NCBI RefSeq assembly: GCF_050320075.1
Contig: NZ_CP190018.1
Direction: 5' to 3' (one strand)
Length of the DNA: 64,000 nucleotides
Source: Escherichia coli
GTDB lineage: Bacteria > Pseudomonadota > Gammaproteobacteria > Enterobacterales > Enterobacteriaceae
Below the pieces are notes generated by a model. That model was not told the origin of the DNA. It made no database searches and saw only the letters and a program-made list of their open reading frames with translations. Within the stretch, counting starts at the first letter, position 1; each line of letters opens with the position of its first letter. Of this stretch, positions 34,749 through 64,000 are shown piece after piece. A program made the position numbers and the translations under genes.

Positions 34749-34762
34749 TGCTCACCTCTCAA

Positions 34763-44005: not shown

Positions 44006-44014
44006 ATCCGCTAA

Positions 44015-44488
44015 TTATTTAAAATTAAAGCCATCCGGATGGTTTTCCAGGCTGCCGGTCAACGCCGCGAACAGCACCGTTTTACCATCAATCGAAAGCG
44101 CATCGTTCACATTCAGCCAGGTGAGTTTCTCTTGCGACGTTTTCTCATCAATAGTCGAGAACAGCCCCGTCATCTGATTAGATTTCTCGGACCACATCAC
44201 AGCGATACGTTGCGAGCCACAGTCATGCGGTTTGCACGCGCTCATCACCTGATACGTCTCATCTCCCAACGTTACGGTTTGTGCGGGAGTATAAGTACCG
44301 CCTTTCATCACCCATGCAGGTAGCTTATGCCCTTGCACCATCTGATTAAACGCAGCTTTGGTGGTTTCGCCCTTTGCAAGGCTGCTAATGGTTAAATCAT
44401 CCTGCGCCATTGCACTGGTGGCGATGACCAGAGCGGCGACTGTCGTTATTGCCTTAAACATCATTCCTCCCGAGCTTATCCTGCCCAT
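44015..44488 (-). CDS. ivy: Inhibitor of vertebrate lysozyme Ivy
   Basis: 157 aa with signal peptide; MKGGTYTPAQT...CKPHDCGSQRIAVMW. Confidence 0.9.
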   Translation of the reverse strand: MGRISSGGMMFKAITTVAALVIATSAMAQDDLTISSLAKGETTKAAFNQMVQGHKLPAWVMKGGTYTPAQTVTLGDETYQVMSACKPHDCGSQRIAVMWSEKSNQMTGLFSTIDEKTSQEKLTWLNVNDALSIDGKTVLFAALTGSLENHPDGFNFK

Positions 44489-44641
44489 GTTATTAACCTC
44501 CTAAAGCCTGGCGATAACACGATAATTTGCAAATCAGATATTTCCAATATCAGCATTTGTTATCAATTTATTCTGCGCTAAGGCAACTGCCTGATAAGGT
44601 GTTAGAGTTATAAAACCCTTCGCATAAAGGAGTTGTACACC

Positions 44642-45412
44642 GTGTCTGGTTTGAAGATTACGCTTTTACAGCAACCACTGGTGTGGATGGATGGTCCTGC
44701 CAACCTGCGTCATTTTGATCGTCAACTGGAAGGTATTACCGGACGCGATGTGATCGTTCTACCGGAGATGTTTACCAGCGGCTTTGCCATGGAAGCGGCA
44801 GCTTCGTCGCTAGCACAAGATGACGTAGTGAACTGGATGACAGCCAAAGCGCAGCAGTGCAATGCGCTGATTGCAGGCAGTGTTGCATTACAAACGGAGT
44901 CTGGTTCGGTTAACCGCTTTTTGCTGGTTGAGCCGGGCGGCACGGTACATTTTTATGATAAGCGTCATCTGTTCCGCATGGCAGATGAGCATCTACATTA
45001 TAAAGCGGGCAATGCGCGAGTGATTGTGGAATGGCGCGGCTGGCGTATTTTGCCGCTGGTGTGCTACGACTTACGTTTTCCTGTGTGGTCGCGCAATCTC
45101 AACGATTATGACCTCGCCCTATACGTCGCCAACTGGCCTGCTCCGCGCTCTCTGCACTGGCAGGCATTGCTGACGGCCCGCGCGATTGAGAATCAGGCGT
45201 ATGTGGCGGGATGCAATCGCGTCGGCAGCGATGGCAACGGCTGCCATTATCGCGGTGACAGCCGGGTGATTAATCCACAGGGCGAGATTATCGCTACTGC
45301 CGACGCGCATCAGGCAACGCGCATTGATGCGGAGCTGTCGATGGTGGCGTTGCGGGAATATAGAGAAAAGTTTCCGGCATGGCGGGATGCGGATGAGTTT
45401 AGGTTGTGGTGA
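44642..45412 (+). CDS. yafV: Carbon-nitrogen hydrolase (omega-amidase) YafV
   Basis: Preferred GTG start 44642 after AGGAG; 256 aa. Confidence 0.9.
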   Translation: MSGLKITLLQQPLVWMDGPANLRHFDRQLEGITGRDVIVLPEMFTSGFAMEAAASSLAQDDVVNWMTAKAQQCNALIAGSVALQTESGSVNRFLLVEPGGTVHFYDKRHLFRMADEHLHYKAGNARVIVEWRGWRILPLVCYDLRFPVWSRNLNDYDLALYVANWPAPRSLHWQALLTARAIENQAYVAGCNRVGSDGNGCHYRGDSRVINPQGEIIATADAHQATRIDAELSMVALREYREKFPAWRDADEFRLW

Positions 45413-45463
45413 GTGGGTGTTGTGTTTAGGGGCGGGGTAAGACTACGGGTCAGGGCAAGATTA

Positions 45464-45831
45464 CGAAAGCCCGGAGCCTGTCCATCATTCTGTGTAAATG
45501 CCTTTCTCAGAAGTGACCGTCAAGGCGGTCACCGAACTCGATAATAAAGCGACTCATCCCTATCCGCCAGTCCTGAAGTGGCATCGTCCATTTTTGCGAC
45601 GCTGACTGGAAAGCCAGCCACACCACTTTTTTCACCGACTCATCTGTCGGGAACACTTTCCGTTTCTTTATCGCATGTGTGATGATGCTATTCAGCGATT
45701 CGATTGCGTTAGTGGTGTAGATAACCTTGCGGATCGCCTCCGGGTACACGAAGAATGTGGCAACATTCGGCCAGTTTGCCCGCCAGCTGCGACTTATCTG
45801 CGGGTACCGTGCATCCCATTCCTTCCCAGGG
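45464..45831 (-). mobile_element. IS256-family transposase remnant (C-terminal fragment only)
   Basis: ORF 45507-45749 resembles the C-terminal end of mutator/IS256-type transposases; bracketed by a 15-bp direct repeat AGATTACGAAAGCCC at 45449-45463 and 45832-45846. Confidence 0.55.
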
Positions 45832-45836
45832 AAAGA

Positions 45837-46958
45837 TTACGAAAGCCCGCTCCCCGCAAGGACTGACGCCAGATAGTTTCTGTCCATGGCTGCTTTTCGC
45901 ATCTTACGTCTTAACCCTGCCTTGAATACCTTATCATTCGTCAAAATATTAATAGCGATGTGCCGTATCCCTGAAAATAATTCTGCTGCGTTTCCTCTTC
46001 TTATTTTGCAGTCGTCTTCATTCATTACCACGTCCAGACGCCAGTGCAGCTTATTCTCCACGTGCCAGTGGTTTCGGATTGCTGTGGCGAACTTCTCTGC
46101 GGTTAAATCAGCAGAACTAATATAATATCTGACCGTCATTTCTGGCTCTTTCTTTTGTTCTGCTATTATTGACCGAAAGGAGACTGCCACGCATAATTTC
46201 TTCAGACCTTTCCATTCAAACGTGAAATCAATAAGTTCATCAGGGACATCGCAAACAATGTGAAGACGGATTTCTTCTCTGCCGTGACTCTTTTCACTCA
46301 TTGCGTAACTGTCATGCTCTGGATTATTTAATTCTTTCAGCGGAAATTTTTCCTCGAAGGCTTTATTTAGCCGCCCCTGGTTTCCTTTTACAGCGAATAA
46401 ATAATCACCTCCCTGTTTTTGTATCTTCTCTGCAATATCTTTCTGGCAACCCATCGCATCAGTTGTGATGATTTTTCCTTTAATATCCAGCATGTTAAGA
46501 AGTTCTGGGATAGCTATAATTTCATTGGATTTCTCATCCGTCCTGATCTGTCCGATGACCAGACTGTGCATTGTTGAGAACGCACTAATGACATGAATCG
46601 CTCCCTTGCGGCGACTCTTGTCATAAGAATGCCGGAGTGTTTTTCCATCAATTGCGATGACGTCTTTATCATCTGAAGTATGGCAATCTCGCATCCAGTT
46701 AATAAAGCACTCGTGAAATTTTGCAGGACTGATACAGGATACAACTCTGGCGATGGTATCGTGAACAGGAATACCATTTTCAAAATCACCGTATTGTTTT
46801 AAAAAATCGAGATGTGTTTCCCCAAAATCCTCTATATCTTCCCAACCTTCCGCACCCGAAATAACGGCACAAATAGTCAACAGTAGAATATCCGATAATT
46901 TATGTTCCACTTTCCAGGCTTGTCTGTAATCGGGGATAATAGAAATATGCCCCATCAA
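45837..46958 (-). CDS. ISAs1-family (H-repeat) transposase
   Basis: 373 aa; H-rpt/ISAs1-type transposase; directly downstream of an Rhs toxin-immunity pair. Confidence 0.85.
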
Positions 46959-47193
46959 TTTTTTAAGTTCTATTTTGTTCTCCTTAATTATGTAAGGAGT
47001 ATTTGATCATGTATAAGCAATAAAAAACAGCTTTAGGTAATGAGGAATATCTCAATTTTTAAACATAAAATGCGAATTATTTAGTACAAAAAAGCAGCGT
47101 TACGTGATCTTTCCCTGCACTTCACCCTAACTTTAATTTAACTTCAAGAAGTATTAAGGCCTCAATAGCGAACTTAATACTTCTTAAAGAATA

Positions 47194-47571
47194 TCACTCC
47201 TGACCAAAATCTTTCCACACTAATGCATGAGACTTTGATTTATCACCCAAAAATTTACTTACATCTTTCCAAAGTAAAGAATTGCTATCGGTCGCAGTGA
47301 CTATTGCCTCTATAAGCCCTGTAGCTACAACTGTGGCCAATTCATCATCAATCGAGACCATACCATCTTCGACATGTTTAAATATTTTTTCTCTTTCAAT
47401 ATCACCCATTTCATAAAAATTTTTTACAATCGTTTTTCCAATCTGAGAGAACAACATAACCACCGGTGGAGTTTCTGGATGCCAGTATTCATTAGCTAAT
47501 GAGACTGTCTCAGACAAAACAGTGGAAAACGATGCCATTTTTTCTATATAATTAGCAATATATTGGTTCAT
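47194..47571 (-). CDS. Putative immunity protein for the Rhs C-terminal toxin
   Basis: 125 aa, low-GC ORF starting at the Rhs stop; position is the only evidence. Confidence 0.5.
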   Translation of the reverse strand: MNQYIANYIEKMASFSTVLSETVSLANEYWHPETPPVVMLFSQIGKTIVKNFYEMGDIEREKIFKHVEDGMVSIDDELATVVATGLIEAIVTATDSNSLLWKDVSKFLGDKSKSHALVWKDFGQE

Positions 47572-50500: not shown

Positions 50501-50792
50501 AGTCATAAAACCAGCGCGTAATGTTACCGTTGCGCGAGATCTCTTCTGCCAGTCGGCCCTGACGGTCATATTTCCGGCTGCTGCGTAAACCATCCGGATA
50601 TGTCACTGAAGTCAGTTGCAACTGGCTGTTGTAACCATACCGTACCGTCCTGCCGTCCGGCAGTATCACTGAAGTCAGCTTTCCAGACGCCATATGCAGC
50701 CGGTACTCCGTCCGCCGTCCTGCCGCATCCGTCTGCGCCTTCAGCCTCCCCCGCCTCATCATACTCGCTGCGGGTGATGCTCCCGTCGGCAT
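47571..50792 (-). CDS. Rhs polymorphic toxin, core YD-repeat region and variable C-terminal toxin domain (downstream part of a frameshifted gene)
   Basis: 1073 aa; YD repeats; DPxGL boundary (RLDPLGL) then Gly-zipper segment and about 150 aa unassigned C-terminal domain. Confidence 0.85.
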
Positions 50793-52071
50793 GCTCCTTC
50801 TTCACCACACGCTTCAGGCCACCCCCGCCTTCCGTGTACAGCACCTCCCGCCGGTTCAGGCTGTCCGTGATGGTCACACGGTCCTGCCCGTACTCAAAGC
50901 GGTAGTCCAGCCCCTCCGGGTTGACCTGCTCCGTCACCCGCCCGGTATCATCATACCGGTAGCGGCTCTCCGGCCTCCCTGCATAATGGTGCGCCACCAT
51001 CCGCCCGGCGTGCTCCGCATCATAAGTAAACCCGCGCACCTGCGTCCCGCTGCGGTCATACACCGCCCGCAGTTCTCCGCTGGCCGTGTACGTATAGCGC
51101 GCCAGCGGCGCAGTCGGCTGTTCATCCGGGTATGCCGGGTCGTGTGTCAGCCACACCGCCTCCAGCCGGATACCGTTATCGGCACCGTATTCTGTACCGG
51201 CGGGCAGCGTATCGGGGAAAACCTGAGAAGAGGAAACAGAACGGGGACCGGCTGGAGAAGATAAAGAAGAGGCGCGCTGTTTACGGAAGGCTTCCGCCCG
51301 CTGCGCCTGCGTGCTCAGCGCCAGGTGAAAACAGCGGCCCGCGCCGTCCGTCACCCCCGTCACCGCACCCGCCACGTCACCCTCTGCCGCCCGGTGGAAG
51401 GCCAGCGTCCGCCCGAAGCCGTCCACCACGCCCGTCAGCACCCGGTATGCGGGCGGCTCCGGCGGCAGCACCTCGTCCGCCCCCGGCACCCGCTCCGGCC
51501 AGCCGAGCACCAGCCACTGCCCGGTTGTGCTGGCAGCCATCATATAGATGTGTGGACTCAGACGGACCGCTTCCGGCAACGCCCGCCAGAGCCGCGCAAG
51601 CGGGTGGCCTTTGTGCTGTTTCAGCACCCCGCACCGCGCCAGCCAGAACGACTCGCTGCGGCTGTAGCTTATCTCGCCGGGAAACAGGGGTTCAAAGTGA
51701 ATGCTCCTGCCGCCGCTGTCGTTGAGTATCAGGCCTTCATCGCGTATCTGTAAGCGGATATCGAAGGGGGCTTTCCAGCCGGGACCAAACCCCCCCACCG
51801 GCGCGGGCGTCCTGGTCCGGTAGCTGCTGTAGGCGCGGAAAAGAACAAACGGCAGCGGGCCGGACAGTGCCAGGTCGGTTTCAGCAGGCAGCACCTTCGC
51901 TCCCAGCAGCGGGTTTACCGGATTGCCATATTTCGGCGTGGCTTCCCCTGTGGGACACACCGAGCAGGCCACACCGGTTGGCGCACCTATCAGCACCCCT
52001 GCTGAACCCTGCACAATATCCAGTCCCTTGCGGGTCATGTCACCCTGCCGCGCCGCCGGTTTTCCACCCAT
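50566..52071 (-). CDS. PAAR-domain N-terminal part of the Rhs effector (upstream part of the frameshifted gene)
   Basis: 501 aa starting [13 protein letters not shown] (PAAR-like); overlaps the downstream ORF at 50566-50792 in another frame. Confidence 0.8.
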
Positions 52072-52146
52072 GAATCAATTCCTTCTGCTTTTAATATGGT
52101 TTATCTGGTCACTGCACCAGTTCCGTTTTAATTTTTTGCACCTGAC

Positions 52147-54288
52147 TCAAAATTGCCGCATATCCGGCATTCCGGGGGGTAAATCTTTCGGCACAGGCGC
52201 ATCCGGTACAGGTTGTGTGGCACCACAGTTCCAGTTAATCACCGGCGCATCACCGTTCACATCCGACTCTCCTTCCAGATGAATGTGCGTACCATTGAGA
52301 AATATGCTTCCGTCCTTCGTCAGCACCAACCTTGCCTTACCGCAGCAGAGTTCCAGATGCTCACCGGCAGAATAAACTGCTGTTTGTCCGGTGTTTTCCT
52401 TCATCGTCTTGCCCACCGAGAAGGTGACGTTATTCCCTACATTGACGCTGTAGCCCATTCCCACCATCAGTGATTTATGCAGCCCTACCTGTGAGGACTG
52501 CAACAACGCCACCGAGGTATTCATGATGCCGCCTACCGTCGTCTGGTAAGCCACGCCCACCGTCAGCGCACGAATGATCCCCACCTTTTCAACCTGGTTT
52601 GAACCCACTTTGACAATCTGGTTGCTGCCTACCGTTTCCACCTGGTTGACACCAACCGTCTGTATCTGATTAACGCCAATGTTCTGGATCTGGTTATTGG
52701 TAACGGTGATCGCCTGGTTGTTACCTATTTTTTCGGCATGGTTGTTTATCACATCAGTGGTGCGGTTATTCAGCACCTCGGTGTTCATGTTCTTCTGCGC
52801 GTGGATGTAGACCTGTTCTTTCCCTGTCGCATCGTCAAACTTCAGTTCATTAAACCCGCTGCCCTTATAGGTTTTTGAACGAATGGTCATCTGCGTCTTT
52901 GTTCCCGGCAGGCTGCCGGGGGTGCGGTTTTCCTGGTGGTAGGTGCGCCCCATAATAATCGGCTGGTCCGGATCGCCGTTGAGGAAGTCCACAATGACTT
53001 CCTGACCCACACGCGGTATCGCCAGGTTGCCAAAGCCGGTGCCTGCCCACGCCTGTGCCACACGGATCCAGCATGAACTGTCCTGGTTTGACGGGTTATA
53101 GCGGTCCCAGTTAAATTTCACCCGCACGCGGCCATGTTCATCACAGAAGATTTCTTCTCCTGCCGGTCCCGTCACGACGGCGCTCTGCGGGCCGTCCACC
53201 AGCGGTTTCAGCAACGGCTGTGGCCGCCATGTTCTGTCTGCCGGTATTACCGCAAAGTGGTTATTCAGCGTGGTACCTGAACCCCTGCGTCCCGGCACCG
53301 CCTGCGGCTGCTCGCCGTGCAGTTCACTTGCCACCACCTGCCATTCCCGGTTCAGGTTCGCCTGCGGATGCCCCGTCAGCGCAATTCGCCGTCCCGGCCA
53401 TATCTCCGGCGAACGGCTTGTTCCGCGCGCCACTTCTGCGTTGTTTCGCCAGCCATCCATCTGCCAGCAGGCAAAGTTCTGCCCGTGGGCACCCTTGAAA
53501 CGTCCGGGGTAGTCATACACTTCATACTGTGTGCGCTGGTAATCCTGGTGCTGGCCTTCCTGATCAAAACGCCCTGCCCAGCCGGGTCGTTTAAAGGTGT
53601 AGTCTTTGGTCACCACGGAAGATGGGCGGATTTGTGCGCTGTAGAGGAACTGGCTGATGCATAGGGTGCTCACCTCGGTACGGGTGTTCGGATTCCAGGG
53701 GATCTCAAAGGACTCCGGCAGATAACGCACGGTGTCGCACAGGACCAGGCTCTGGTCGGTACTTTTTTGCGCGTGCTCCTCATAAAAGAAGATGCCTTCC
53801 TCCGCCGCCATCCGGCACAGGAAATCGTAATCGGTTTCGCCGTACTGGACACAAAACTCACGGGAAGGATGCGGCTCGCTGAACAGCGGACTCCACTCGG
53901 TCACCCCGTTTTCTTTCAGGATCGTCGCGAGTATGCTTTCGATGTCCTCATTCTGGAAGATACGGAAGTTCTGGCGCAGCCCTGTGCGCCACAGCGGTGG
54001 GCACACCTTCATGCTGTACAGCATCTGGTTTTTGTCGTTCTCCCCCAGTTCAAACCAGGTCACCACACCTTTCACCCGGCGCTGTACGTCATCGCCCTGC
54101 CATACCGTCAGGTAGGCCATTTTGTCCAGCACCTGCGCAAATTCAAGGGAGAGAAACTGCTGGCTGACCAGAGAGAGATCGAGGGAAAAGAGCGAAGAGA
54201 GTGACTGGTTCAGATGAAAGGAGACCACCGCAAACGCGTCCGGTGGCAGGCCGTCCACTTCCAGCGTGAAACGTAATCCGGTTGACAT
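52147..54288 (-). CDS. vgrG: Type VI secretion spike protein VgrG
   Basis: 713 aa; gp27/gp5-like with C-terminal beta-helix repeats. Confidence 0.9.
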   Translation of the reverse strand: MSTGLRFTLEVDGLPPDAFAVVSFHLNQSLSSLFSLDLSLVSQQFLSLEFAQVLDKMAYLTVWQGDDVQRRVKGVVTWFELGENDKNQMLYSMKVCPPLWRTGLRQNFRIFQNEDIESILATILKENGVTEWSPLFSEPHPSREFCVQYGETDYDFLCRMAAEEGIFFYEEHAQKSTDQSLVLCDTVRYLPESFEIPWNPNTRTEVSTLCISQFLYSAQIRPSSVVTKDYTFKRPGWAGRFDQEGQHQDYQRTQYEVYDYPGRFKGAHGQNFACWQMDGWRNNAEVARGTSRSPEIWPGRRIALTGHPQANLNREWQVVASELHGEQPQAVPGRRGSGTTLNNHFAVIPADRTWRPQPLLKPLVDGPQSAVVTGPAGEEIFCDEHGRVRVKFNWDRYNPSNQDSSCWIRVAQAWAGTGFGNLAIPRVGQEVIVDFLNGDPDQPIIMGRTYHQENRTPGSLPGTKTQMTIRSKTYKGSGFNELKFDDATGKEQVYIHAQKNMNTEVLNNRTTDVINNHAEKIGNNQAITVTNNQIQNIGVNQIQTVGVNQVETVGSNQIVKVGSNQVEKVGIIRALTVGVAYQTTVGGIMNTSVALLQSSQVGLHKSLMVGMGYSVNVGNNVTFSVGKTMKENTGQTAVYSAGEHLELCCGKARLVLTKDGSIFLNGTHIHLEGESDVNGDAPVINWNCGATQPVPDAPVPKDLPPGMPDMRQF

Positions 54289-54497
54289 AGCAACCTCCGG
54301 GTTTAAGGAAAAACAGACAGTTCGCTGTTAAAGCGGCTGTAACAGTACAGTGTTACGCTTGCGTTCAGGCACGCTACCGCCGAAGTTTCCGGCATCCGCC
54401 ATCTCCCGTGAACGTAACCCCTTACTGACAACCTTTCTTTTTACGGCGTAATACAAAAACAGCATCCGGCCTAATAGCCGGATGCTGTTGGCTTAAC

Positions 54498-55016
54498 TTA
54501 TGCTTCCAGCGGTGCGCGCCAGTCGTCGGCACCGGAGGTGCCAGACTTGACGTGTTCCCACTCTATTTTGCGGTAGGCCAGTGAAACTTCGAGCAACTGG
54601 GTGAACTCGCGTTTCGCCGGATCCTGGCAATGCGGCATATGCAGTTTCATATCGACAATCGTCGAATCGGTCAGGCGGGTGGTGAAATAATGCTCCTGTT
54701 TGCCTTCCACAGAGGTACGCCACCAGTGAAGTTCAGTGGTTGGCAGCATTTCGCCGGAGGCCAGTGCGTTGTACATCAGCGGAACAGCTTTGTTCAGCGC
54801 CACGGTAAAAATGAACGGCTTGTGAGCACGCTGACCCGCAGGCTGGCCGGACTGAGGATCGGTCGGGACAGTAACGTTATGCAGGAATTCCTGCACCAGC
54901 ATCTCGTCTTCGTGCCCCTGCACATAGATGTTGCCGACAGAATCAGCGGTAAATGCACCTGCAGTAATATTTCCCTGGGTCTGACCAGTGATGGAGATAT
55001 AACACGGTGTTGGCAT
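54498..55016 (-). CDS. hcp: Type VI secretion tube protein Hcp
   Basis: 172 aa; Hcp-family sequence upstream of vgrG. Confidence 0.9.
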   Translation of the reverse strand: MPTPCYISITGQTQGNITAGAFTADSVGNIYVQGHEDEMLVQEFLHNVTVPTDPQSGQPAGQRAHKPFIFTVALNKAVPLMYNALASGEMLPTTELHWWRTSVEGKQEHYFTTRLTDSTIVDMKLHMPHCQDPAKREFTQLLEVSLAYRKIEWEHVKSGTSGADDWRAPLEA

Positions 55017-55712
55017 TTGTAAACTCCTTGTTAACGTGGTTAATTACTACTTACAATGACCTGCCGTTAATCCCAGACAGGCAGATGCAACTCACTTCAC
55101 GGAACCGCATCATTTTTCAGTATTTTTTACATACAAACCGAGCTAGAATTTACGGTTGTCGTAAAAACTATTTTTAAAATCATTAAATCTCTTATTCAGC
55201 AATAAGTTAATAATATATATCTGGATAACCATACCCAACTGTTCAAAGTCCGTATTGCCTCCATAAAATGGCCAAAGCTGAATCATGAATAAATATTGTA
55301 TTTATCCTTTCTGAATTATCATTTTGATAATTTTTGAGATATTCCTTAAAAATACCCACTTAATCAATCACAAAACAAATATATAAACAAGCAATCATCA
55401 GATTAGCTTATGTTTAATGAAATTATTATATAATTCAATAAGTTACATAAAAACTCTATATTTAAATTATTGCCATAATACACCTGACGCGAATTTCGCA
55501 GGTTCACACAATCTATTTAACGCTTGCAGAATACCTCTCTTTACGATCGATAAAAAGTCCTTTTCTTATTTATTTTGAAGCGTAGAATGCGGGGTGATGA
55601 AGGAGTGGTGATTTTATTTTCACCGCCATTAGGGCGGCATTGCCGATATTTTTTTGCGGTACAAATATGCCGTGTTCATGGCCTGTACGAGATAACATGA
55701 CGGATCACTTTT

Positions 55713-56213
55713 ATGAGCAAAAAATTTGAAGGCAGCGTCGCGCCTCGCGAGCGTATAAATATATCCTATGTCCCGAAGACGGACGGCCAGACGGCTGAAG
55801 TGGAGCTTCCGCTTAACATGCTCGTTGTCGGCGATACCGGAAATACGCAGGAGACATCCCCACTGGATGAACGTCAGGCAGTTTCCGTTAACAAGCACAA
55901 TTTCGGTGCGGTGATGGCTGAAGCAGCCATTGGCCTCAATTTTACCGTCCCCGCCACGCTGAAGGGAAGCACAACGGACGATGAACTGAATGTGGCGCTG
56001 AATATCAAGTCACTGGATGATTTTTCACCGGACAGCGTGGCCCGGCAGGTTCCGGAAGTTAATAAATTGCTGGAATTGCGTGAAGCACTGACTGCGCTGA
56101 AGGGGCCGATGGGCAACCTTCCGGCATTCCGTACCCAGCTCCAGGCATTGCTGGAAAATGAGGAGTCCCGCGAGCAGTTGCTCAAAGAAATCGGCCAAGT
56201 GAGTGGGAAATAA
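55713..56213 (+). CDS. tssB: T6SS sheath small subunit TssB (VipA)
   Basis: 166 aa; MSKKFEGSVAPRERINISY... Confidence 0.9.
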   Translation: MSKKFEGSVAPRERINISYVPKTDGQTAEVELPLNMLVVGDTGNTQETSPLDERQAVSVNKHNFGAVMAEAAIGLNFTVPATLKGSTTDDELNVALNIKSLDDFSPDSVARQVPEVNKLLELREALTALKGPMGNLPAFRTQLQALLENEESREQLLKEIGQVSGK

Positions 56214-56247
56214 CCACCACTATTTCATTAAACAGGGTTATCCAGAC

Positions 56248-56472
56248 ATGGCGGCACACAAAAATATCTCCGGGAAACACCCCCTCTCTGACGAAGACAT
56301 TTTGCAGGCGGTTTACCGGGTATGTTTCAGCCCGTCCGGTGAAATCAACCGGGATGGCGTGGATGCGCTGATTACAACACTGGATCGCCGTATCAGTGAT
56401 CTATTGGATGAGATTATCCATCTTTGTGAGTTTCAGCAGAGCGCGCCGTACTGGCGGCGCGTACTTCACTGA
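56248..56472 (+). CDS. Small hypothetical ORF between tssB and tssC
   Basis: 74 aa from the internal ATG of ORF 56203-56472; no recognisable family. Confidence 0.3.
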   Translation: MAAHKNISGKHPLSDEDILQAVYRVCFSPSGEINRDGVDALITTLDRRISDLLDEIIHLCEFQQSAPYWRRVLH

Positions 56473-56522
56473 CGGCGAAAACCCGGTTTCAGAAACACAG
56501 CTAAAACAGAAGGATTTTCAGT

Positions 56523-57998
56523 ATGTCTTTACAGGAAGAGGAACTCGTTTCCAGTCATGCCGGGCAGACTGATCAGGCATCGTCGCTGCTTGATCAAATC
56601 ATGGCTCAGACCCGTATTCAGCCCGGTTCAGAAGGTTATGACGTTGCCCGCCAGGGTGTGACAGCCTTTATTGCCAGCATCCTGCAATCCACTGCATCTG
56701 CCGAACCGGTCAATAAACTGGCCGTGGACAGCATGATTGCAGATATTGATGAACGCATCAGCCGCCAGATGGATGTCATCATCCATGCGCCTGCCTTTCA
56801 GCAGGTCGAGTCGTTCTGGCGCTCACTGAAAACCATGGTGGATCGCGTTGATTTCCGTGAAAACATCAAGGTCAACGTGCTTCATGTCACCAAGCAGGAA
56901 CTTCTGGAAGACTTTGAGTTTGCGCCAGAAATTATTCAGTCCGGATTTTATAAGCACGTTTATTCGTCCGGTTTCGGACAGTTTGGCGGTGAACCCATCG
57001 CTGCCGTGCTGGGCGCTTATGAGTTCAAAAATACCGCGCCTGACATGAAACTGCTGCAATACGTCAGTGCCGTGGGCGCAATGGCGCACGCACCGTTCCT
57101 GTCCTCCGTTTCCCCGGAGTTTATGGGGCTGAACTCGTGGACCGAACTGCCTAATATCAAAGATCTTTATGCCATCTTTGAAGGTCCGGCCTACACCAAA
57201 TGGCGCGCCCTGCGTGACTCGGAAGATTCGCGCTATTTAGGGCTTACGGCACCCCGCTTCCTGCTTCGCCAGCCCTATTCACCAACAGATAACCCTGTTA
57301 AGAACTTTAACTATTACGAAGATGTCAGCCAGAACCACGAAGATTATCTGTGGGGTAATACGGCCTGGATGCTGGCATGCAATATCGCAGACAGTTTTGC
57401 CAAATACCGCTGGTGTCCAAACATTATCGGTCCGCAAAGCGGCGGCGCAGTGAAAGATCTGCCGGTGCATCTGTTCGAAACGATGGGGCAGATTCAGGCC
57501 AAAATCCCAACCGAGGTGCTGGTCACCGATCGCCGCGAATTTGAACTGGCTGAAGAGGGTTTTATCACCCTTACCATGCGTAAAGACTCTGATAATGCAG
57601 CCTTTTTCTCTGCAAACTCGGTACAAAAACCGAAGCACTTTCCGGGAAAAGACGCAGAAACCAACTATAAGCTGGGTACGCAGCTTCCTTATCTCTTCAT
57701 CATCAATCGGTTAGCGCACTACATCAAGGTGTTGCAGCGTGAACAACTGGGGTCATGGAAAGAAAGGAGCGACTTAGAAAGAGAGCTTAATACCTGGATC
57801 CGTCAGTATGTTGCCGACCAGGAAAACCCGCCTGCAGACGTGCGCAGCCGCAAACCTCTGCGCGCTGCCAAAGTTGAGGTTATGGATGTAGAAGGCGAAC
57901 CCGGCTGGTACCAGGTTGCGCTAAGCGTGAGGCCTCATTTTAAATTTATGGGGGCAAATTTTGAGCTTTCCCTGGTTGGCCGGTTAGACAGGGAGTAA
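56523..57998 (+). CDS. tssC: T6SS sheath large subunit TssC (VipB)
   Basis: 491 aa. Confidence 0.95.
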   Translation: MSLQEEELVSSHAGQTDQASSLLDQIMAQTRIQPGSEGYDVARQGVTAFIASILQSTASAEPVNKLAVDSMIADIDERISRQMDVIIHAPAFQQVESFWRSLKTMVDRVDFRENIKVNVLHVTKQELLEDFEFAPEIIQSGFYKHVYSSGFGQFGGEPIAAVLGAYEFKNTAPDMKLLQYVSAVGAMAHAPFLSSVSPEFMGLNSWTELPNIKDLYAIFEGPAYTKWRALRDSEDSRYLGLTAPRFLLRQPYSPTDNPVKNFNYYEDVSQNHEDYLWGNTAWMLACNIADSFAKYRWCPNIIGPQSGGAVKDLPVHLFETMGQIQAKIPTEVLVTDRREFELAEEGFITLTMRKDSDNAAFFSANSVQKPKHFPGKDAETNYKLGTQLPYLFIINRLAHYIKVLQREQLGSWKERSDLERELNTWIRQYVADQENPPADVRSRKPLRAAKVEVMDVEGEPGWYQVALSVRPHFKFMGANFELSLVGRLDRE

Positions 57999-58004
57999 CA
58001 CACC

Positions 58005-58418
58005 ATGATACCGGATCGGGAAAGAACCACAGGTTCTCTTTTTGAGCGTATGGAAGCCTCTTCAGCCAGAAACCGGCAGGGAGGCAGTATTCATTCGCTC
58101 AGGCAATCCATTCGCCAGAACCTACGAAACATTCTTAATACCCGGTCCGGTAGTTGCCGGGGTGCGCCTGAGCTGGGCATTGATGAACCGGAAGGGGCTG
58201 AAAACTTCCGCGAATCAATGAGTCGGGCCATCGCGCAATGTATAGAACGCTATGAACCCCGGATCTCACGCGCTGAAGTGCAGGCAGTGGTTTCATCCGC
58301 CTCCAGCCCGCTGGATATGACGTTTCATATTACAGCCTGGGTGACATTTAACGAAACGCATGAGGTGCTTGAATTTGATATGGCACCGAATGGCAGCCAG
58401 CATTACCGGGTGGACTGA
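58005..58418 (+). CDS. tssE: T6SS baseplate protein TssE (gp25-like)
   Basis: 137 aa. Confidence 0.85.
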   Translation: MIPDRERTTGSLFERMEASSARNRQGGSIHSLRQSIRQNLRNILNTRSGSCRGAPELGIDEPEGAENFRESMSRAIAQCIERYEPRISRAEVQAVVSSASSPLDMTFHITAWVTFNETHEVLEFDMAPNGSQHYRVD

Positions 58419-58421
58419 CAA

Positions 58422-60272
58422 ATGGAATTTGAAGAACGCTATTTCCGGGAAGAACTCGATTACCTGCGCCAGCTTAGCAAGCTGCTGGCAACGGAAAAAC
58501 CCCATCTGGCCCGCTTCCTGGCCGAAAAAGATGCAGATCCGGATATTGAACGCCTGCTGGAAGGGGTGGCTTTTCTTACCGGCAATCTCCGCCAGAAAAT
58601 TGAGGATGAATTCCCAGAACTGACGCACGGGCTTATTAAGATGCTATGGCCTAATTACCTGCGTCCGGTTCCGGCAATGACCCTTATTGAATATACGCCG
58701 GATATGGATAAGTCTTCTGTGCCGGTGTTAATCCCCCGTAATGAGCAGTTTACAACCAACGCCGGGGAAATTAGAGTCGATGAAGTGCTGCCCTCCGATG
58801 CTAAAAAGGAGGAGCCGCCTCCCTGTACCTTCACCCTCTGCCGGGATATCTGGCTGCTGCCCGTTCGCCTGGAGCAGATTGAAAACCGCAGTACGACCCG
58901 TAATGGTGTTATCAACATCACCTTTTCGGTCGCACCGGGAACGGACTTCCGCACGCTGGATCTGAACAAACTTCGCTTCTGGCTCGGCAATGACGACAAC
59001 TATACCCGTGACCAGCTTTATTTATGGTTCTGTGAATACTTGCAGGGTGCCGACCTGACTGTGGGTGAACAGCATATTCGCCTGCCTGAGTTTATGCTGA
59101 AAGCTGTCGGTTTTGAGCCACAGGATGCCATGCTGCCCTGGCCGAAAAACGTCCACAGCGGCTACCGGATCCTTCAGGAGTATTTCTGTTACCCGGATGC
59201 GTTTCTCTTTTTTGATCTTTGTGGTTGTCCGGCGTTGCCTGACGGATTGCAGGCTGAATCCTTTACCCTGCAACTGCGTTTTTCGCGCCCATTGCCCGTG
59301 GACATCCGGTTGCGCCGCGACTCCCTGCGCCTGTATTGCGCACCTGCCATTAATTTATTTATCCACCATGCAGAAGCCATCACGCTGGACAACCGGCGGG
59401 CAGACTATCCGCTGGTTCCCAGCCGCCATTATCCGGAACATTACGATGTCTTTTCCGTTAACGGCGTGATAAGCCAGGTGCAGGATATGTTCAGGAAAAA
59501 AGATCTGGGGCGTCCTGTTTCGACGCAGGCCGCGCGCCAGTGGCCTGCCTTTGAAAGTTTCAGCCATCAGATGGAATACAGCCGGAAGCGGGAAGTGGTG
59601 TACTGGCATCACCGGACCAAAACATCCCTGTTCCATCGCGGCTTTGATCATACCCTTGCTTTTATACATGCTGATGGCAGTTATCCGTCAGACGAATCGC
59701 TGCTCAGTAATGAAGTGGTTTCGGTATCGCTGACCTGTACCAACCGTGAGCTTCCGTCACAAATTCGTTCCGGCGATATCACCGGCACAACCGGTAAAAA
59801 TGCGGCTGTTGCTTCATTTCGCAACATTACCCGCCCGACGCAACCGCTCTGGCCGGTCATTGATGGCAGCCTGCACTGGTCCCTGCTCTCCGCCATGAAC
59901 CTGAATTATCTGTCATTACTGGATACGGACGCGCTGAAGCAGGTCATCGCCAACTTTGATCGCCACGCAATCCATCATCCGCAGACGGCGCGGCTGTCAC
60001 AACAAAAGCTGGATGCCATTGAGCGTCTGGAGACTCGCCCTGTCGACCGCCTGTTTACGGGCATTCCCGTCCGGGGGCTGGCCTCCACGCTGTATCTGCA
60101 CCCGGAGCCGTTTGTCTGTGAAGGGGAAATGTATCTGCTCGGTACGGTGCTTTCGCATTTTCTGTCGCTGTACGCCAGCGTTAACTCATTCCACATGCTG
60201 ACCGTTGTGAACACAGAAAGCCAGGAGACATGGAAATGGACGGAAAGAACCGGGCAGCATCCTCTTATCTGA
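58422..60272 (+). CDS. tssF: T6SS baseplate protein TssF
   Basis: 616 aa. Confidence 0.9.
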   Translation: MEFEERYFREELDYLRQLSKLLATEKPHLARFLAEKDADPDIERLLEGVAFLTGNLRQKIEDEFPELTHGLIKMLWPNYLRPVPAMTLIEYTPDMDKSSVPVLIPRNEQFTTNAGEIRVDEVLPSDAKKEEPPPCTFTLCRDIWLLPVRLEQIENRSTTRNGVINITFSVAPGTDFRTLDLNKLRFWLGNDDNYTRDQLYLWFCEYLQGADLTVGEQHIRLPEFMLKAVGFEPQDAMLPWPKNVHSGYRILQEYFCYPDAFLFFDLCGCPALPDGLQAESFTLQLRFSRPLPVDIRLRRDSLRLYCAPAINLFIHHAEAITLDNRRADYPLVPSRHYPEHYDVFSVNGVISQVQDMFRKKDLGRPVSTQAARQWPAFESFSHQMEYSRKREVVYWHHRTKTSLFHRGFDHTLAFIHADGSYPSDESLLSNEVVSVSLTCTNRELPSQIRSGDITGTTGKNAAVASFRNITRPTQPLWPVIDGSLHWSLLSAMNLNYLSLLDTDALKQVIANFDRHAIHHPQTARLSQQKLDAIERLETRPVDRLFTGIPVRGLASTLYLHPEPFVCEGEMYLLGTVLSHFLSLYASVNSFHMLTVVNTESQETWKWTERTGQHPLI

Positions 60273-61318
60273 GTCCGGGAAATCCCCCGGCAGATAAAGA
60301 GCAGAATGATCCGCTGGCACAGGTTTTTCATAACGCCTGCTCTTACAATTTTTTTGCGATGGCGGAGCTGTTGCACCGCCTGGCACAGGGTGAAAAGGGG
60401 ACGCCGGAATTATCCCTGCGCGACGATCCGGCACAGGAAACCCTGCGTTTCAGCGCCGATGCCAGCCTTGCGTTTCCCCTGAGTGATATCAGTGCGCTGA
60501 AACGGGATACGTCAGGGGCATTCAGGATGACCACTACCTTTATGGGGTTACAGGGGAGCCAGTCGCCTCTCCCCGGTTATTACCTCGATCACCTGGCCTG
60601 GAAAGCGGTACATGAACAAAGTCCGGTAGGTGATTTTCTGGATATGTTCAGCCACCGCCTGACCCAGTTTGTCTGGCATATCTGGCGTAAGTACCGCTAT
60701 CACATCAGTTTTCGTAACGGCGGTGTGGATGCGTTCTCGCAGCGCATGTACTCCCTTGTTGGGCTGGGCCACCGCCAGCTTCGCGATAAGCTGGCGATTA
60801 ATCACAGCAAAATGCTGGCGTATTCCGGGATCCTGGCAAATCCGGGACGATCCCCGGAAATAATCTGCGGTCTGGTGTCCCACTGTTTTGATTTGTCAGA
60901 CGTGACGCTGCAAAACTGGCAACGTCGCAAGGTGGATATTGAACCGGATCAGCAAAATAGCCTGGGGAGTTATTCACTTAAAAATGGCGAAAAACTGGCA
61001 GGAAGATCGGTACTGGGCAACTTTGTTCTGGGTACACGGGTGCCCGATCTCAGCGGAAAATTCCAGCTCAGTATTACCAGCCTGACCCGAAAACAGTTCC
61101 TCTCTTTTCTGCCGTCCGGCGAAAACTTCCTGCCACTGACGATGTTTGTGTCCTTCATCCTGCGCGATCAGCTTGCCTGGGACTTACATCTGGGGCTGGC
61201 GCCGGAGCAGGTGGGCGCAATGCGCCTGGGCGATAACAAAAGTGCGCTGCTGGGCTGGACCAGCTTCCTCGGCACACCGGAAGAACGACCTTCAGTCACC
61301 ATCAGGGTACGGTCGTAA
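60236..61318 (+). CDS. tssG: T6SS baseplate protein TssG
   Basis: Start at second ATG after AGGAG; overlaps the tssF end. Confidence 0.85.
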   Translation: MDGKNRAASSYLSPGNPPADKEQNDPLAQVFHNACSYNFFAMAELLHRLAQGEKGTPELSLRDDPAQETLRFSADASLAFPLSDISALKRDTSGAFRMTTTFMGLQGSQSPLPGYYLDHLAWKAVHEQSPVGDFLDMFSHRLTQFVWHIWRKYRYHISFRNGGVDAFSQRMYSLVGLGHRQLRDKLAINHSKMLAYSGILANPGRSPEIICGLVSHCFDLSDVTLQNWQRRKVDIEPDQQNSLGSYSLKNGEKLAGRSVLGNFVLGTRVPDLSGKFQLSITSLTRKQFLSFLPSGENFLPLTMFVSFILRDQLAWDLHLGLAPEQVGAMRLGDNKSALLGWTSFLGTPEERPSVTIRVRS

Positions 61319-61342
61319 ATTATGATAATCACGGAGCAGAAT

Positions 61343-62623
61343 ATGCCGGAAGAGAAACTACAGACGCTTTCATTGCAGGTCATTAACGGCAGTGAGCTGG
61401 AAAGCGGGCGGGCGGCGCGCTGTCTGTTCACACAGCAGGGAAATGTCGGCCATGGCCCCGAATGCCACTGGTCGGTACAGGATCGTCAGCAGAGCATTCC
61501 GGCTCAGGCTTTTACCGTTATCCTGCACGATGGCACATTTTGTCTGCGCCCGCAGACGGCACAACTGTGGCTGAACCAGGCAAAAGTCACAGCAACATCA
61601 GACCTGATACAGCTGCGCCAGGGCGATGAGATCCAGATAGGGCGTCTGATGGTGAGGGTTCATCTGAACCGGGGAGATATCCCCCATTACGATGAGGAAA
61701 TGGCCACTCCCGAAACCATCGTCACCAATCGCGATATGCTCACGGATACCCTGCTGTCAACGGAGGGTGCGCCACACTATCCGGGAATGACTCACCGGCA
61801 TCAGCTTGCAGACACCGTGGTAAACGGTTTTTCTACCGATCCACTCCAGGCACTTCAGTCCGAAAGCCTGATTACCACGGGCGATCCGCTTTCAGGCATT
61901 GCGGCTGTCCGGCCATCGGCACCGCTGTCCGATCCGGCAAGTAATGGTGGGATCAATACTCCGTTTATGGATCTACCGCCCATTTATGCCAGCCCCGGCG
62001 ATCGTAATGATGACTTCCCTGTGGCAGAAATGGCGCAACGCCACCTTGCGGTCACCCCCTTACTGCGCGGTCTCGGCGGCTCGCTTACCGTGAGCAATTC
62101 TGACGATGCGGATGATTTTCTGGAAGAGGCCGGACGCACGTTACAGGCCGCAATAAAAGGTCTGCTCGATTTGCAGCAACAGCGTAACAGCCTCTCAGAC
62201 AAACATTTGCGCCCGCTGGAAGATAACCCGCTGCGCCTGAACATGGATTACGCCACCGCGCTCGACGTGATGTTTGCCGAAGGTAAAAGTCCGGTACATC
62301 TGGCGGCTCCCGCCGCTGTCAGTGAAAGCCTGCGTAATGTCCGCCACCACGAAGAAGCTAACCGGGCAGCGATTGTGGAGTCACTTCGTGTCCTGCTTGA
62401 CGCTTTCTCACCACAAAATCTGCTGCGCCGCTTTGTGCAGTACCGCCGCAGCCATGAACTGCGCCAGCCGCTGGATGATGCCGGAGCATGGCAAATGTAC
62501 AGCCATTATTACGAAGAACTGGCCTCCGATCGCCAGCAGGGGTTTGAGATGCTGTTTAACGAGGTCTACGCCCAGATCTATGACCGGGTGCTTCGTGAAA
62601 AACAGCGGGAGCCGGAAGCATGA
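61343..62623 (+). CDS. tagH: T6SS FHA-domain protein TagH
   Basis: N-terminal FHA-like region; start at ATG 61343 after GGAG (ORF track 61322). Confidence 0.8.
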   Translation: MPEEKLQTLSLQVINGSELESGRAARCLFTQQGNVGHGPECHWSVQDRQQSIPAQAFTVILHDGTFCLRPQTAQLWLNQAKVTATSDLIQLRQGDEIQIGRLMVRVHLNRGDIPHYDEEMATPETIVTNRDMLTDTLLSTEGAPHYPGMTHRHQLADTVVNGFSTDPLQALQSESLITTGDPLSGIAAVRPSAPLSDPASNGGINTPFMDLPPIYASPGDRNDDFPVAEMAQRHLAVTPLLRGLGGSLTVSNSDDADDFLEEAGRTLQAAIKGLLDLQQQRNSLSDKHLRPLEDNPLRLNMDYATALDVMFAEGKSPVHLAAPAAVSESLRNVRHHEEANRAAIVESLRVLLDAFSPQNLLRRFVQYRRSHELRQPLDDAGAWQMYSHYYEELASDRQQGFEMLFNEVYAQIYDRVLREKQREPEA

Positions 62624-63144
62624 ACAGGAAGGCGTTTCTGGCCTGCGTGCTGATGTGCGTCATATTAACCGGCTGCGAAACGGCGAAAAAAATCAGCGAG
62701 GTGATCAAAAACCCGGATATCCAGGTCGGGAGCCTGAAGGAGCAACCTTCGGAAATAACCGTCACCCTGCTGACCGAACCGGACACCAATACCAATGCGG
62801 AGGGTGAATCAGCCGCCGTGGATGTGCAACTGGTGTACCTGACTGACGACTCAAAATTGCTGGCAGCCGACTATGACCAGATAGCCAGTACGCCGCTACC
62901 GGATGTGTTGGGTAAAAACTATATCGACCACCAGGATTTCAACCTGTTGCCGGACACCATCAAAACCCTGCCGCCGGTAAAGCTGGATGAGAAAACGCAG
63001 TTTATTGGTGTCGTGGCCTATTTCTCCGATGACCAGGCCACTGAATGGAAACAAATCGAGACGGTGGAAGGAACCGGCCACCATTACCGCCTGCTGGTGC
63101 ATGTACGTCAAAGCAGCATCGAAATGAAAAAAGAGGATGAATAA
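62620..63144 (+). CDS. tssJ: T6SS outer-membrane lipoprotein TssJ
   Basis: 174 aa with lipobox LTGC. Confidence 0.8.
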   Translation: MNRKAFLACVLMCVILTGCETAKKISEVIKNPDIQVGSLKEQPSEITVTLLTEPDTNTNAEGESAAVDVQLVYLTDDSKLLAADYDQIASTPLPDVLGKNYIDHQDFNLLPDTIKTLPPVKLDEKTQFIGVVAYFSDDQATEWKQIETVEGTGHHYRLLVHVRQSSIEMKKEDE

Positions 63145-63146
63145 TT

Positions 63147-64000
63147 ATGGCAACCACCCGCAACAAGGTGATGTGGCAGGAAGGGATGCTGATGCGCCCA
63201 CACCATTTCCAGCAACAGCAGCGTTACAACGACTACCTGGATAACCAGCGTTTCCGGGCCATGAATGATTTATCCTGGGGATTTACCGAACTCACCCTCA
63301 ACAATGAACTGCTGGCGCAGGGTAAGATCATGATTGACAGCGCGTCAGGCACACTGCCCGACGGCACCGTCTTTTCTATCCCCGACCAGGACGCACTGCC
63401 CGATCCGCTGCACCCGCAACATTTTCCGGACGAAAGAAGCCGCAATATTTACCTCGCTCTGCCGGTCGCCAGTGATGTGAGAAATGAAATCAGCGACGGG
63501 CGGCGAATCGGGCGTTACCGGCTGAATTATGCCGATGTCCGGGATCTGCATTCAGAAGAAGGTGACGCGCGAACACTGACGCTGGGTCAACTGACGCCGC
63601 GCATTATGAGCGGTGCAGAAGATATGAGCGCCTATATTACGCTCCCGCTTTGCCGTATCAGCGATCGCCATGCCGACGGCTCCCTGACGCTGGATGACGA
63701 TTTTATCCCCTCCTGCCAGAATATTCAGGTCAGTAAGAAACTGCGTGTTTATCTCAAAGAGGTACAGGGGGCCATTGGCGGACGGGCAAGCGATCTGGCA
63801 AACCGCATTGGCTCTCCGGCGCAGAGCGGCATCGCGGATGTGGCGGAATTTATGATGTTGCAGTTACTTAACCGTAACCAGACCCGGTTTACCCATCGCG
63901 CTCGTCGATCCCAGCTCCACCCGGAAGATTTCTACCTTGATCTTGCCGGGTTGCTGGGTGAACTGATGACCTTTACCGAGCCGTCGCGCCTGCCCTGCCC
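63147..64000 (+). CDS. tssK: T6SS baseplate protein TssK (partial; continues past the right edge)
   Basis: ATG 63147; MATTRNKVMWQEGMLMRPHHFQQQQRY...; open to the window end (not in ORF track). Confidence 0.85.
   Translation, partial: MATTRNKVMWQEGMLMRPHHFQQQQRYNDYLDNQRFRAMNDLSWGFTELTLNNELLAQGKIMIDSASGTLPDGTVFSIPDQDALPDPLHPQHFPDERSRNIYLALPVASDVRNEISDGRRIGRYRLNYADVRDLHSEEGDARTLTLGQLTPRIMSGAEDMSAYITLPLCRISDRHADGSLTLDDDFIPSCQNIQVSKKLRVYLKEVQGAIGGRASDLANRIGSPAQSGIADVAEFMMLQLLNRNQTRFTHRARRSQLHPEDFYLDLAGLLGELMTFTEPSRLPC

What the first reader, a model, noticed from the sequence alone, without database searches (positions are those of the whole stretch)
55713..64000. Type VI secretion core operon tssB-tssC-tssE-tssF-tssG-tagH-tssJ-tssK continuing beyond the window
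All listed core components are present with conserved N-termini and tight spacing. The membrane complex (tssL, tssM), tssA and clpV are not in the window and presumably follow. The cluster lies in the region between yafV and the aspV tRNA, where T6SS islands occur in some E. coli lineages.
Basis: partly seen in the sequence, partly recalled or inferred. Interest (0 to 1): 0.35.

Follow-up and report, generated by a model that had tools for sequence, protein, structure and literature searches.

The report
Known E. coli T6SS-2 gene cluster
This is the first half of the well-known "T6SS-2" type VI secretion island that about 40% of E. coli strains carry next to the aspV tRNA gene; the call is correct but ordinary.

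Summary
Window 55713-64000 (+) encodes tssB, tssC, tssE, tssF, tssG, tagH, tssJ and the first 284 codons of tssK. Each matches its NCBIfam equivalog and Pfam model far above the curated cut-off.

The window is base-for-base identical to E. coli YZLc1-3 (NZ_CP123240.1, 3991582-4055581) in every stretch compared (1-31419 and 30999-64000). In that record the operon continues tssK-tssL-tssH(clpV)-vasI-tssA-tssM-vasL-hcp, then tRNA-Asp (aspV) and dnaQ.

This is the published E. coli T6SS-2 island at tRNA-Asp (PMC8715443, PMC10711316, PMC5363993). Its gene order matches the Vibrio cholerae large cluster, minus vasH (PMC4441509).

Corrections:
- The cluster also runs leftwards, as a divergent hcp-vgrG-rhs-immunity operon (47194-55016, - strand).
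- That Rhs effector is split by one extra G in a G-run.
- The tssB-tssC spacing is not tight. It is 309 bp and holds a 74-codon ORF that looks like a neutrally evolving relic of a tssC 5' end.

Nothing here is new, and interest is low.

The parts
55713..56213 (+). tssB (VipA-type small sheath subunit), 166 aa
   Evidence: TIGR03358, 171.5 bits (cut-off 97.25); PF05591
56248..56472 (+). 74-codon ORF between tssB and tssC, probably a relic of a tssC 5' end; RefSeq annotates it as a hypothetical protein
   Evidence: Residues 33-72 are 43% identical to TssC 63-102. Weak hit to Pfam VipB positions 1-34, below cut-off. Same position in diverged clusters. 15 nonsynonymous versus 3 synonymous changes between E. 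coli alleles.
56523..57998 (+). tssC (VipB-type large sheath subunit), 491 aa
   Evidence: TIGR03355, 703 bits; PF05943 plus PF18945. Best solved relative is V. cholerae VipB, 5mxn/3j9g.
58005..58418 (+). tssE (gp25-like baseplate subunit), 137 aa
   Evidence: TIGR03357, 115.8 bits; PF04965
58422..60272 (+). tssF (baseplate), 616 aa
   Evidence: TIGR03359, 560 bits; PF05947
60236..61318 (+). tssG (baseplate), 360 aa; overlaps the tssF end by 37 nt
   Evidence: TIGR03347, 349.5 bits; PF06996. Start as in RefSeq.
61343..62623 (+). tagH (FHA-domain accessory protein), 426 aa
   Evidence: TIGR03354, 340 bits; PF20232, plus a marginal PF00498 FHA hit
62620..63144 (+). tssJ (outer-membrane lipoprotein of the membrane complex), 174 aa; lipobox L-T-G-C at residues 16-19
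   Evidence: TIGR03352, 133.7 bits; PF12790. Lipobox read from the translation.
63147..64000 (+). tssK (baseplate), first 284 of 443 codons; cut by the window end
   Evidence: TIGR03353, 263.5 bits, profile positions 1-269 of 429. Full gene in L001.
55017..55712 (.). 696-bp AT-rich (33% GC) divergent control region between hcp and tssB
   Evidence: Composition. Sigma-70-like hexamer matches are no more frequent than in shuffled sequence. No sigma-54 consensus. H-NS repression of the homologous EHEC cluster is reported in PMC5363993.
54498..55016 (-). hcp (tssD tube protein), 172 aa
   Evidence: TIGR03344, 207 bits; PF05638
54458..54489 (-). Terminator-like hairpin (14 pairs plus a T run) between hcp and vgrG
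52147..54288 (-). vgrG (tssI spike), 713 aa
   Evidence: TIGR03361, 626 bits; PF05954, PF04717, PF22178
47571..52071 (-). Rhs effector (rhsG-type) split into 501-aa and 1073-aa ORFs by one extra G in a G-run (C5 on the + strand at 50748-50752). The C-terminal toxin of about 243 aa has no known family.
   Evidence: NF041261 RHS_core positions 1-451 and 435-1261 fall on the two pieces. The intact W150 allele has G4 where the window has G5. RefSeq flags it 'frameshifted' in three genomes.
47194..47571 (-). 125-aa ORF directly after rhs; candidate immunity protein
   Evidence: Position only, plus a weak DUF7674 hit below cut-off. Assignment is inferred.
45837..46973 (-). ISAs1/ISEc1-family transposase at the left edge of the island, next to an IS fragment at 45507-45818
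   Evidence: PF13808 plus PF01609; RefSeq annotation

Best explanation
Window 55713-64000 is the 5' half of the structural operon of the E. coli type VI secretion system known as T6SS-2. This is a chromosomal island of about 31 kb between yafV and tRNA-Asp (aspV).

The mechanism below is established for T6SS in general and is inferred here from homology:
- TssJ, with TssL and TssM encoded just past the window, forms the envelope-spanning membrane complex.
- TssK, TssE, TssF, TssG and the VgrG spike form the baseplate that docks on it.
- TssA primes polymerisation of the Hcp tube inside the TssB/TssC sheath.
- Sheath contraction fires Hcp/VgrG and the attached toxins into a neighbouring cell.
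- ClpV (TssH) recycles the contracted sheath.
- TagH is an FHA-domain accessory scaffold. No partner kinase or phosphatase is encoded in the cluster.

The operon is transcribed divergently from hcp-vgrG-rhs-immunity, across a 696-bp AT-rich region of the kind H-NS silences in the homologous EHEC cluster. In this strain every structural gene is intact. The Rhs toxin encoded beside vgrG, however, is broken by a 1-nt insertion. The machine is therefore probably assembly-competent but must rely on effectors encoded elsewhere.
For: Shown:
- All eight + strand genes, plus hcp and vgrG, match their family models above curated cut-offs at full length.
- The window is identical to NZ_CP123240.1 wherever compared.
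- The downstream tssK, tssL, tssH, vasI, tssA, tssM, vasL and hcp genes there are full length and above cut-off, except VasL, which matches only part of the TssA model below cut-off. The same layout is found in SB0258h1.
- tssB and tssC are under purifying selection, with omega 0.06 and 0.14-0.29.
- 1949 of 5426 complete E. coli genomes hold at least 80% of the 17-kb stretch, and 2227 hold tssB-orf-tssC.

From the literature:
- T6SS-2 variants integrate at tRNA-Asp (PMC8715443).
- The T6SS-2 locus carries all 13 tss genes, an FHA gene, rhsG after vgrG, and a second tssA and tssD (PMC10711316).
- The EHEC aspV cluster is functional and repressed by H-NS (PMC5363993).

Gene order equals V. cholerae VCA0107-VCA0121 without vasH (PMC4441509, Table 1). 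TssC is closest to VipB among solved structures.
Against: - No expression or secretion data exist for this strain.
- The cis-encoded Rhs effector is a pseudogene.
- Related lineages are documented to have degenerate T6SS-2 (PMC10711316, PMC12981562). The O157:H7 tssC seen is truncated.
- The half containing tssL, tssM, tssA and clpV lies outside the window. It is known only through the identical public genome.
- Point mutations that inactivate a protein without truncating it cannot be excluded.
Confidence: 0.92

Rival explanations
1. The cluster is a silent or decaying relic in this strain. It is structurally complete on paper, but it is no longer used because its own Rhs effector is dead and the locus is H-NS-silenced.
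For: Rhs is frameshifted, and the frameshift is shared by the three closest genomes. ISAs1 copies abut the island. An ISCro1 insertion between tssB and tssC occurs in the sister strain Ec-U3. Expression of the EHEC homologue is very low in vitro (PMC5363993). Loss or degeneration is documented in other lineages (PMC10711316, PMC12981562).
Against: All 13 core genes are full length with end-to-end model coverage. tssB and tssC show strong purifying selection. E. coli genomes usually carry further orphan vgrG/rhs/hcp effector loci that can use the same machine. That last point is general knowledge and was not tested for this strain.
Confidence: 0.25
2. The genes belong to a different contractile injection system (an extracellular phage-tail-like particle or tailocin) or to another E. 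coli T6SS class (T6SS-1 or T6SS-3), not to T6SS-2.
For: Sheath, gp25-like and baseplate proteins are shared by all contractile injection systems (PF04965 hit).
Against: - T6SS-specific membrane-complex and recycling genes are present: tssJ in the window, and tssL, tssM and clpV just after it.
- The matches are to T6SS equivalog models, not phage models.
- Insertion at tRNA-Asp, rhs after vgrG, the FHA gene and a second hcp/tssA-like pair are the published T6SS-2 signature (PMC8715443, PMC10711316).
- T6SS-1 sits at tRNA-Met (PMC8715443).
Confidence: 0.01

Closest known systems
E. coli T6SS-2 at tRNA-Asp/aspV (EHEC EDL933 z0243-z0275 cluster; ST410-A/H53 and ECC-1470-type loci)
   Same: Same insertion site, same gene content and order, rhsG-type effector after vgrG, an FHA gene, and a second hcp and tssA-like gene at the distal end. 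The O157:H7 and ETEC alleles are 94-95% identical over tssB to the start of tssC, and tssC itself is 99.5% identical. Literature: PMC5363993, PMC10711316, PMC8715443.
   Different: Only allelic details differ. This strain's Rhs has a 1-nt frameshift and its own C-terminal toxin/immunity pair. The tssB and 74-codon-ORF alleles belong to the minority type: 234 records at 99% identity or more, against 1855 at 90-95%.
Vibrio cholerae large T6SS cluster (VCA0107-VCA0121: vipA vipB tssE vasA vasB fha vasD vasE vasF clpV vasH vasI vasJ vasK vasL)
   Same: Identical gene order from tssB to vasL (versus PMC4441509, Table 1). TssC scores 823 bits against VipB structure 5mxn.
   Different: No vasH (sigma-54 activator), and no sigma-54 promoter motif in the control region. 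There is a 309-bp insert with a TssC-like ORF between tssB and tssC. Here hcp, vgrG and rhs lie directly upstream and divergent, rather than in auxiliary clusters.
Pseudomonas aeruginosa H1-T6SS threonine-phosphorylation pathway (Fha1/PpkA/PppA)
   Same: A TagH/Fha-type FHA protein is encoded directly before tssJ-tssK-tssL.
   Different: No PpkA-like kinase or PppA-like phosphatase gene is annotated anywhere in the island. Post-translational control by this route is therefore unsupported here.

Membership tests
Type VI secretion system (canonical, 13 core genes tssA-tssM) | Contractile sheath TssB plus TssC | tested here: met
   TIGR03358 and TIGR03355 above cut-off, full length
Type VI secretion system (canonical, 13 core genes tssA-tssM) | Baseplate TssE, TssF, TssG and TssK | tested here: met
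   TIGR03357, TIGR03359, TIGR03347 and TIGR03353 above cut-off. tssK is cut by the window end but complete in the identical genome.
Type VI secretion system (canonical, 13 core genes tssA-tssM) | Tube Hcp (TssD) and spike VgrG (TssI) | tested here: met
   TIGR03344 and TIGR03361 above cut-off, window 54498-55016 and 52147-54288 (- strand)
Type VI secretion system (canonical, 13 core genes tssA-tssM) | Membrane complex TssJ, TssL and TssM | tested here: met
   TssJ is in the window (TIGR03352). TssL (TIGR03349) and TssM (TIGR03348, 936 bits, positions 2-1167 of 1168) were tested only in the identical genome L001, beyond the window.
Type VI secretion system (canonical, 13 core genes tssA-tssM) | TssA cap protein and ClpV/TssH ATPase | tested here: met
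   TIGR03362 (500 bits) and TIGR03345 (1119 bits) in L001, beyond the window
Type VI secretion system (canonical, 13 core genes tssA-tssM) | Actual Hcp secretion or contact-dependent killing | not testable with these tools
   Needs a wet-lab assay. Function was shown only for the homologous EHEC cluster (PMC5363993).
E. coli T6SS-2 subtype | Integrated at tRNA-Asp (aspV), between yafV and dnaQ | tested here: met
   yafV is at window 44642-45412. tRNA-Asp and dnaQ follow the cluster in L001 and L002. Criterion from PMC8715443.
E. coli T6SS-2 subtype | T6SS-2 gene organisation: rhs after vgrG, an FHA gene, and a second tssA-like and hcp gene | tested here: met
   Criterion from PMC10711316.
V. 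cholerae VAS-type regulation | VasH sigma-54 enhancer-binding protein in the cluster, and a sigma-54 promoter | tested here: not met
   There is no vasH between tssH and vasI. No TGGCAC-N5-TTGCW match with 2 or fewer mismatches in 55017-55712.
Threonine-phosphorylation pathway (Fha/PpkA/PppA) | Ser/Thr kinase and phosphatase genes alongside the FHA gene | tested here: not met
   None is annotated in the island. The rest of the genome was not examined.

The most novel reading that the evidence does not exclude
The 74-codon ORF kept between tssB and tssC (56248-56472) might be a real small protein that mimics the TssC N-terminal segment (residues 63-102). As such it could modulate sheath assembly or ClpV recycling in the T6SS-2 lineage.

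An ORF of 66-74 codons, with the conserved core ALIxxLDxRIxxLxDxIIH, sits at the same position in clusters whose TssB and TssC are only 75-88% identical.

Against this, the substitution pattern between E. coli alleles is neutral (15 nonsynonymous to 3 synonymous, omega about 1.5). The interval diverges as fast as non-coding DNA. Frameshifted variants occur, and there is no clear ribosome-binding site.
Probability: 0.05. Interest if true: 0.4.

Novelty: already known. Interest (0 to 1): 0.08.

Why it matters
It matters little beyond correct annotation. T6SS-2 at aspV is a described, common E. coli island involved in interbacterial competition and, in EHEC and NMEC, in host interaction.

For this strain the useful practical point is that the apparatus looks intact while its adjacent Rhs toxin is frameshifted. 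Any T6SS-2 phenotype would therefore depend on effectors encoded elsewhere.

Tried and rejected
- **Frameshifted tssC.** I asked whether the 309-bp tssB-tssC gap hides a frameshifted tssC. It does not: tssC is full length (profile positions 2-473 of 473). The gap holds a separate 74-codon ORF with local similarity to TssC 63-102.
- **The ORF as a conserved gene.** A word-based search found only Escherichia hits of 50-107 aa, including frameshifted forms. The exhaustive HMMER search added three small homologues and some spurious repeat-protein hits, but no full-length TssC. The dN/dS test gave omega of about 1.5, so I treat the ORF as a relic.
- **Sigma-54 promoter in the control region.** None was found.
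- **Rfam families over 44000-64000.** None matched.
- **Repeat search over 45000-64000.** It found only Rhs-internal and IS-end repeats.
- **The Rhs C-terminal toxin.** It has no Pfam or NCBIfam family. The only match to solved structures is to the linker of CdiA-CT tRNases, not to their nuclease domain, so no activity is assigned.
- **Sequencing error as the cause of the Rhs frameshift.** Rejected, because three independently assembled genomes share it.
Full report
**1. Observation**

The + strand from 55713 to the window end carries a run of ORFs:

| Gene | Coordinates |
|---|---|
| tssB | 55713-56213 |
| tssC | 56523-57998 |
| tssE | 58005-58418 |
| tssF | 58422-60272 |
| tssG | 60236-61318 |
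| tagH | 61343-62623 |
| tssJ | 62620-63144 |
| tssK | 63147 to 64000, still open at the window end |

Against NCBIfam, each protein hits exactly one T6SS model, far above the curated cut-off and over the whole profile.

| Protein | NCBIfam model | Bits |
|---|---|---|
| TssB | TIGR03358 | 171 |
| TssC | TIGR03355 | 703 |
| TssE | TIGR03357 | 116 |
| TssF | TIGR03359 | 560 |
| TssG | TIGR03347 | 349 |
| TagH | TIGR03354 | 340 |
| TssJ | TIGR03352 | 134 |
| TssK | TIGR03353 | 263 |

For TssK the match covers profile positions 1-269 of 429, because the window cuts the gene. Pfam agrees for all eight. TssJ has a lipobox, L-T-G-C at residues 16-19, read directly from the translation.

Junctions run from a 37-nt overlap to a 24-nt gap, with one exception. 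tssB and tssC are 309 bp apart. The one qualification is that 'tight spacing' fails at that junction.

**2. What surrounds it**

On the - strand, diverging from tssB across a 696-bp region of 33% GC, lie:

- hcp (54498-55016)
- a strong terminator-like hairpin (54489-54458)
- vgrG (52147-54288)
- an Rhs gene (47571-52071)
- a 125-codon ORF in the position of an immunity gene (47194-47571)
- an ISAs1-family element (45837-46973)
- yafV (44642-45412)

The island therefore starts near 47.2 kb, not at 55713.

The two Rhs ORFs cover RHS_core profile positions 1-451 and 435-1261. Alignment with the intact allele of strain W150 shows a single extra G in a G-run: GAGGCGGGGGAGG in the window against GAGGCGGGGAGG in W150. 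On the + strand this is the C5 run at 50748-50752. RefSeq flags the gene as frameshifted in all three closest genomes, so it is not a read error of one assembly.

**3. Extension to the right**

Every stretch of the window that I compared (1-31419 and 30999-64000) is base-for-base identical to E. coli YZLc1-3, NZ_CP123240.1 3991582-4055581. Only three of 5426 complete genomes share the thrW prophage at the left end of the window.

In YZLc1-3 the operon continues as follows: tssK (443 aa), tssL/dotU (253 aa), tssH/clpV (939 aa), vasI, tssA (470 aa), tssM (1144 aa), a VasL-domain protein, a second hcp, two hypothetical genes flanking a frameshifted ykfM, then tRNA-Asp and dnaQ.

I re-tested these proteins myself. 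TssK, TssL, TssH, VasI, TssA, TssM and Hcp all exceed their cut-offs at full length. VasL matches only the N-terminal part of the TssA model.

Strain SB0258h1 has the same layout. Sister strain Ec-U3 has an ISCro1 insertion between tssB and the small ORF, which the window lacks.

Strictly, this rests on the identity of the window with a public genome, not on the window itself.

**4. What it is and how it works**

This is the E. coli T6SS-2 island.

- The two T6SS-2 variants integrate at tRNA-Asp, whereas T6SS-1 sits at tRNA-Met (PMC8715443).
- The T6SS-2 locus has all 13 tss genes, an FHA gene, rhsG after vgrG, and a second tssA and tssD (PMC10711316).
- The aspV-associated EHEC cluster secretes Hcp, is repressed by H-NS and is barely expressed in vitro (PMC5363993).

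The gene order from tssB to vasL is the same as V. cholerae VCA0107-VCA0121 (PMC4441509, Table 1), except that vasH is absent. TssC is closest to VipB among solved structures (5mxn, 823 bits).

The mechanism is inferred from homology to these studied systems and was not tested here:

- A TssJLM membrane complex spans the envelope.
- A TssEFGK-VgrG baseplate docks on it.
- TssA primes growth of the Hcp tube inside the TssBC sheath.
- The sheath contracts and fires the tube and spike.
- ClpV recycles the contracted sheath.

On regulation, no sigma-54 motif lies in the control region, and no kinase or phosphatase partner for TagH is encoded in the island. The AT-rich divergent promoter region fits H-NS silencing, but that is an inference.

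Because the adjacent Rhs is frameshifted, this strain's T6SS-2 probably has to use effectors encoded elsewhere. Whether it is active at all is open, and I give the 'silent relic' rival about 0.25.

**5. How common it is**

- 1949 of 5426 complete E. coli genomes hold at least 80% of the stretch 47000-64000.
- 2227 hold tssB-ORF-tssC.

The locus is ordinary in E. coli.

**6. The one odd detail**

The 309-bp tssB-tssC interval contains a 74-codon ORF (56248-56472), which RefSeq calls a hypothetical protein.

Evidence that it derives from tssC:

- Its residues 33-72 are 43% identical to TssC residues 63-102 (pairwise E = 5e-10).
- It weakly matches the first 34 positions of Pfam VipB, below cut-off.

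Evidence that it is positionally conserved:

- Homologues are confined to Escherichia and a few unnamed relatives.
- In two diverged clusters an ORF of 66-70 codons sits at the same place.

Evidence that it is not under protein-level constraint:

- Its identity in those clusters is only about 40%, while TssB, TssC and TssF are 75-88% identical.
- The interval diverges at the nucleotide level as fast as the non-coding hcp-tssB region (58% against 56%).
- Between the two main E. coli alleles there are 15 nonsynonymous and 3 synonymous changes. This gives omega of about 1.5, against 0.06 for tssB and 0.14-0.29 for tssC.
- Frameshifted variants exist.
- No clear Shine-Dalgarno sequence precedes it.

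I conclude it is most likely a neutrally drifting relic of a tssC 5' end. A functional small protein is kept as a 5% possibility.

**7. Verdict**

The system is already known, and interest is low.

Noticed in passing
window 56248-56472 (+): A 74-codon ORF between tssB and tssC has a segment 43% identical to TssC residues 63-102. It is positionally conserved in diverged T6SS-2-type clusters but evolves neutrally (omega about 1.5). It is probably a relic of a tssC 5' end.
   Followed up: yes
window 47571-52071 (-), frameshift at 50748-50752: The Rhs effector next to vgrG is split by one extra G in a G4 run, relative to the intact allele of strain W150. The frameshift is shared by the three closest genomes.
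   Followed up: yes
window 47571-48302 (-) and 47194-47571 (-): The Rhs C-terminal region of about 243 aa has no Pfam or NCBIfam family. It begins with a glycine-rich hydrophobic stretch. Its linker resembles that of CdiA-CT tRNases (5j43, 5j5v). Its last 149 aa recur at the ends of Rhs, PAAR and haemagglutinin-type toxins in many genera. The toxin activity and the 125-aa putative immunity protein are uncharacterised.
   Followed up: partly
window 1-23792: A lambdoid/P22-like prophage carries portal, terminase, lysis, nin, replication, cII, repressor, N, ERF, anti-RecBCD and integrase genes. It is integrated at tRNA-Thr (thrW, 23717-23792, - strand). The whole prophage is found in only 3 of 5426 complete E. 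coli genomes.
   Followed up: partly
window about 31685-38020 (from L001 686-7021): Backbone decay and small modules lie between pepD and yafL: prfH and rtcB fragments, yafNOP-dinB, lafU plus a truncated flhA (scar of the Flag-2 lateral flagellar cluster), and a hicAB toxin-antitoxin pair.
   Followed up: no
window 45451-46973: An ISAs1/ISEc1 element and a fragment of a second transposase gene sit between yafV and the Rhs immunity gene. A 23-nt direct repeat occurs at 45451-45473 and 45827-45849.
   Followed up: no
L003 (E. coli Ec-U3) 9783-12398; L008 (O157:H7 ATCC 35150) 2311-3702: Relatives show ongoing T6SS-2 erosion. ISCro1 is inserted between tssB and the small ORF in Ec-U3. tssC is shortened in O157:H7 (1392 nt against 1476 nt).
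   Followed up: no
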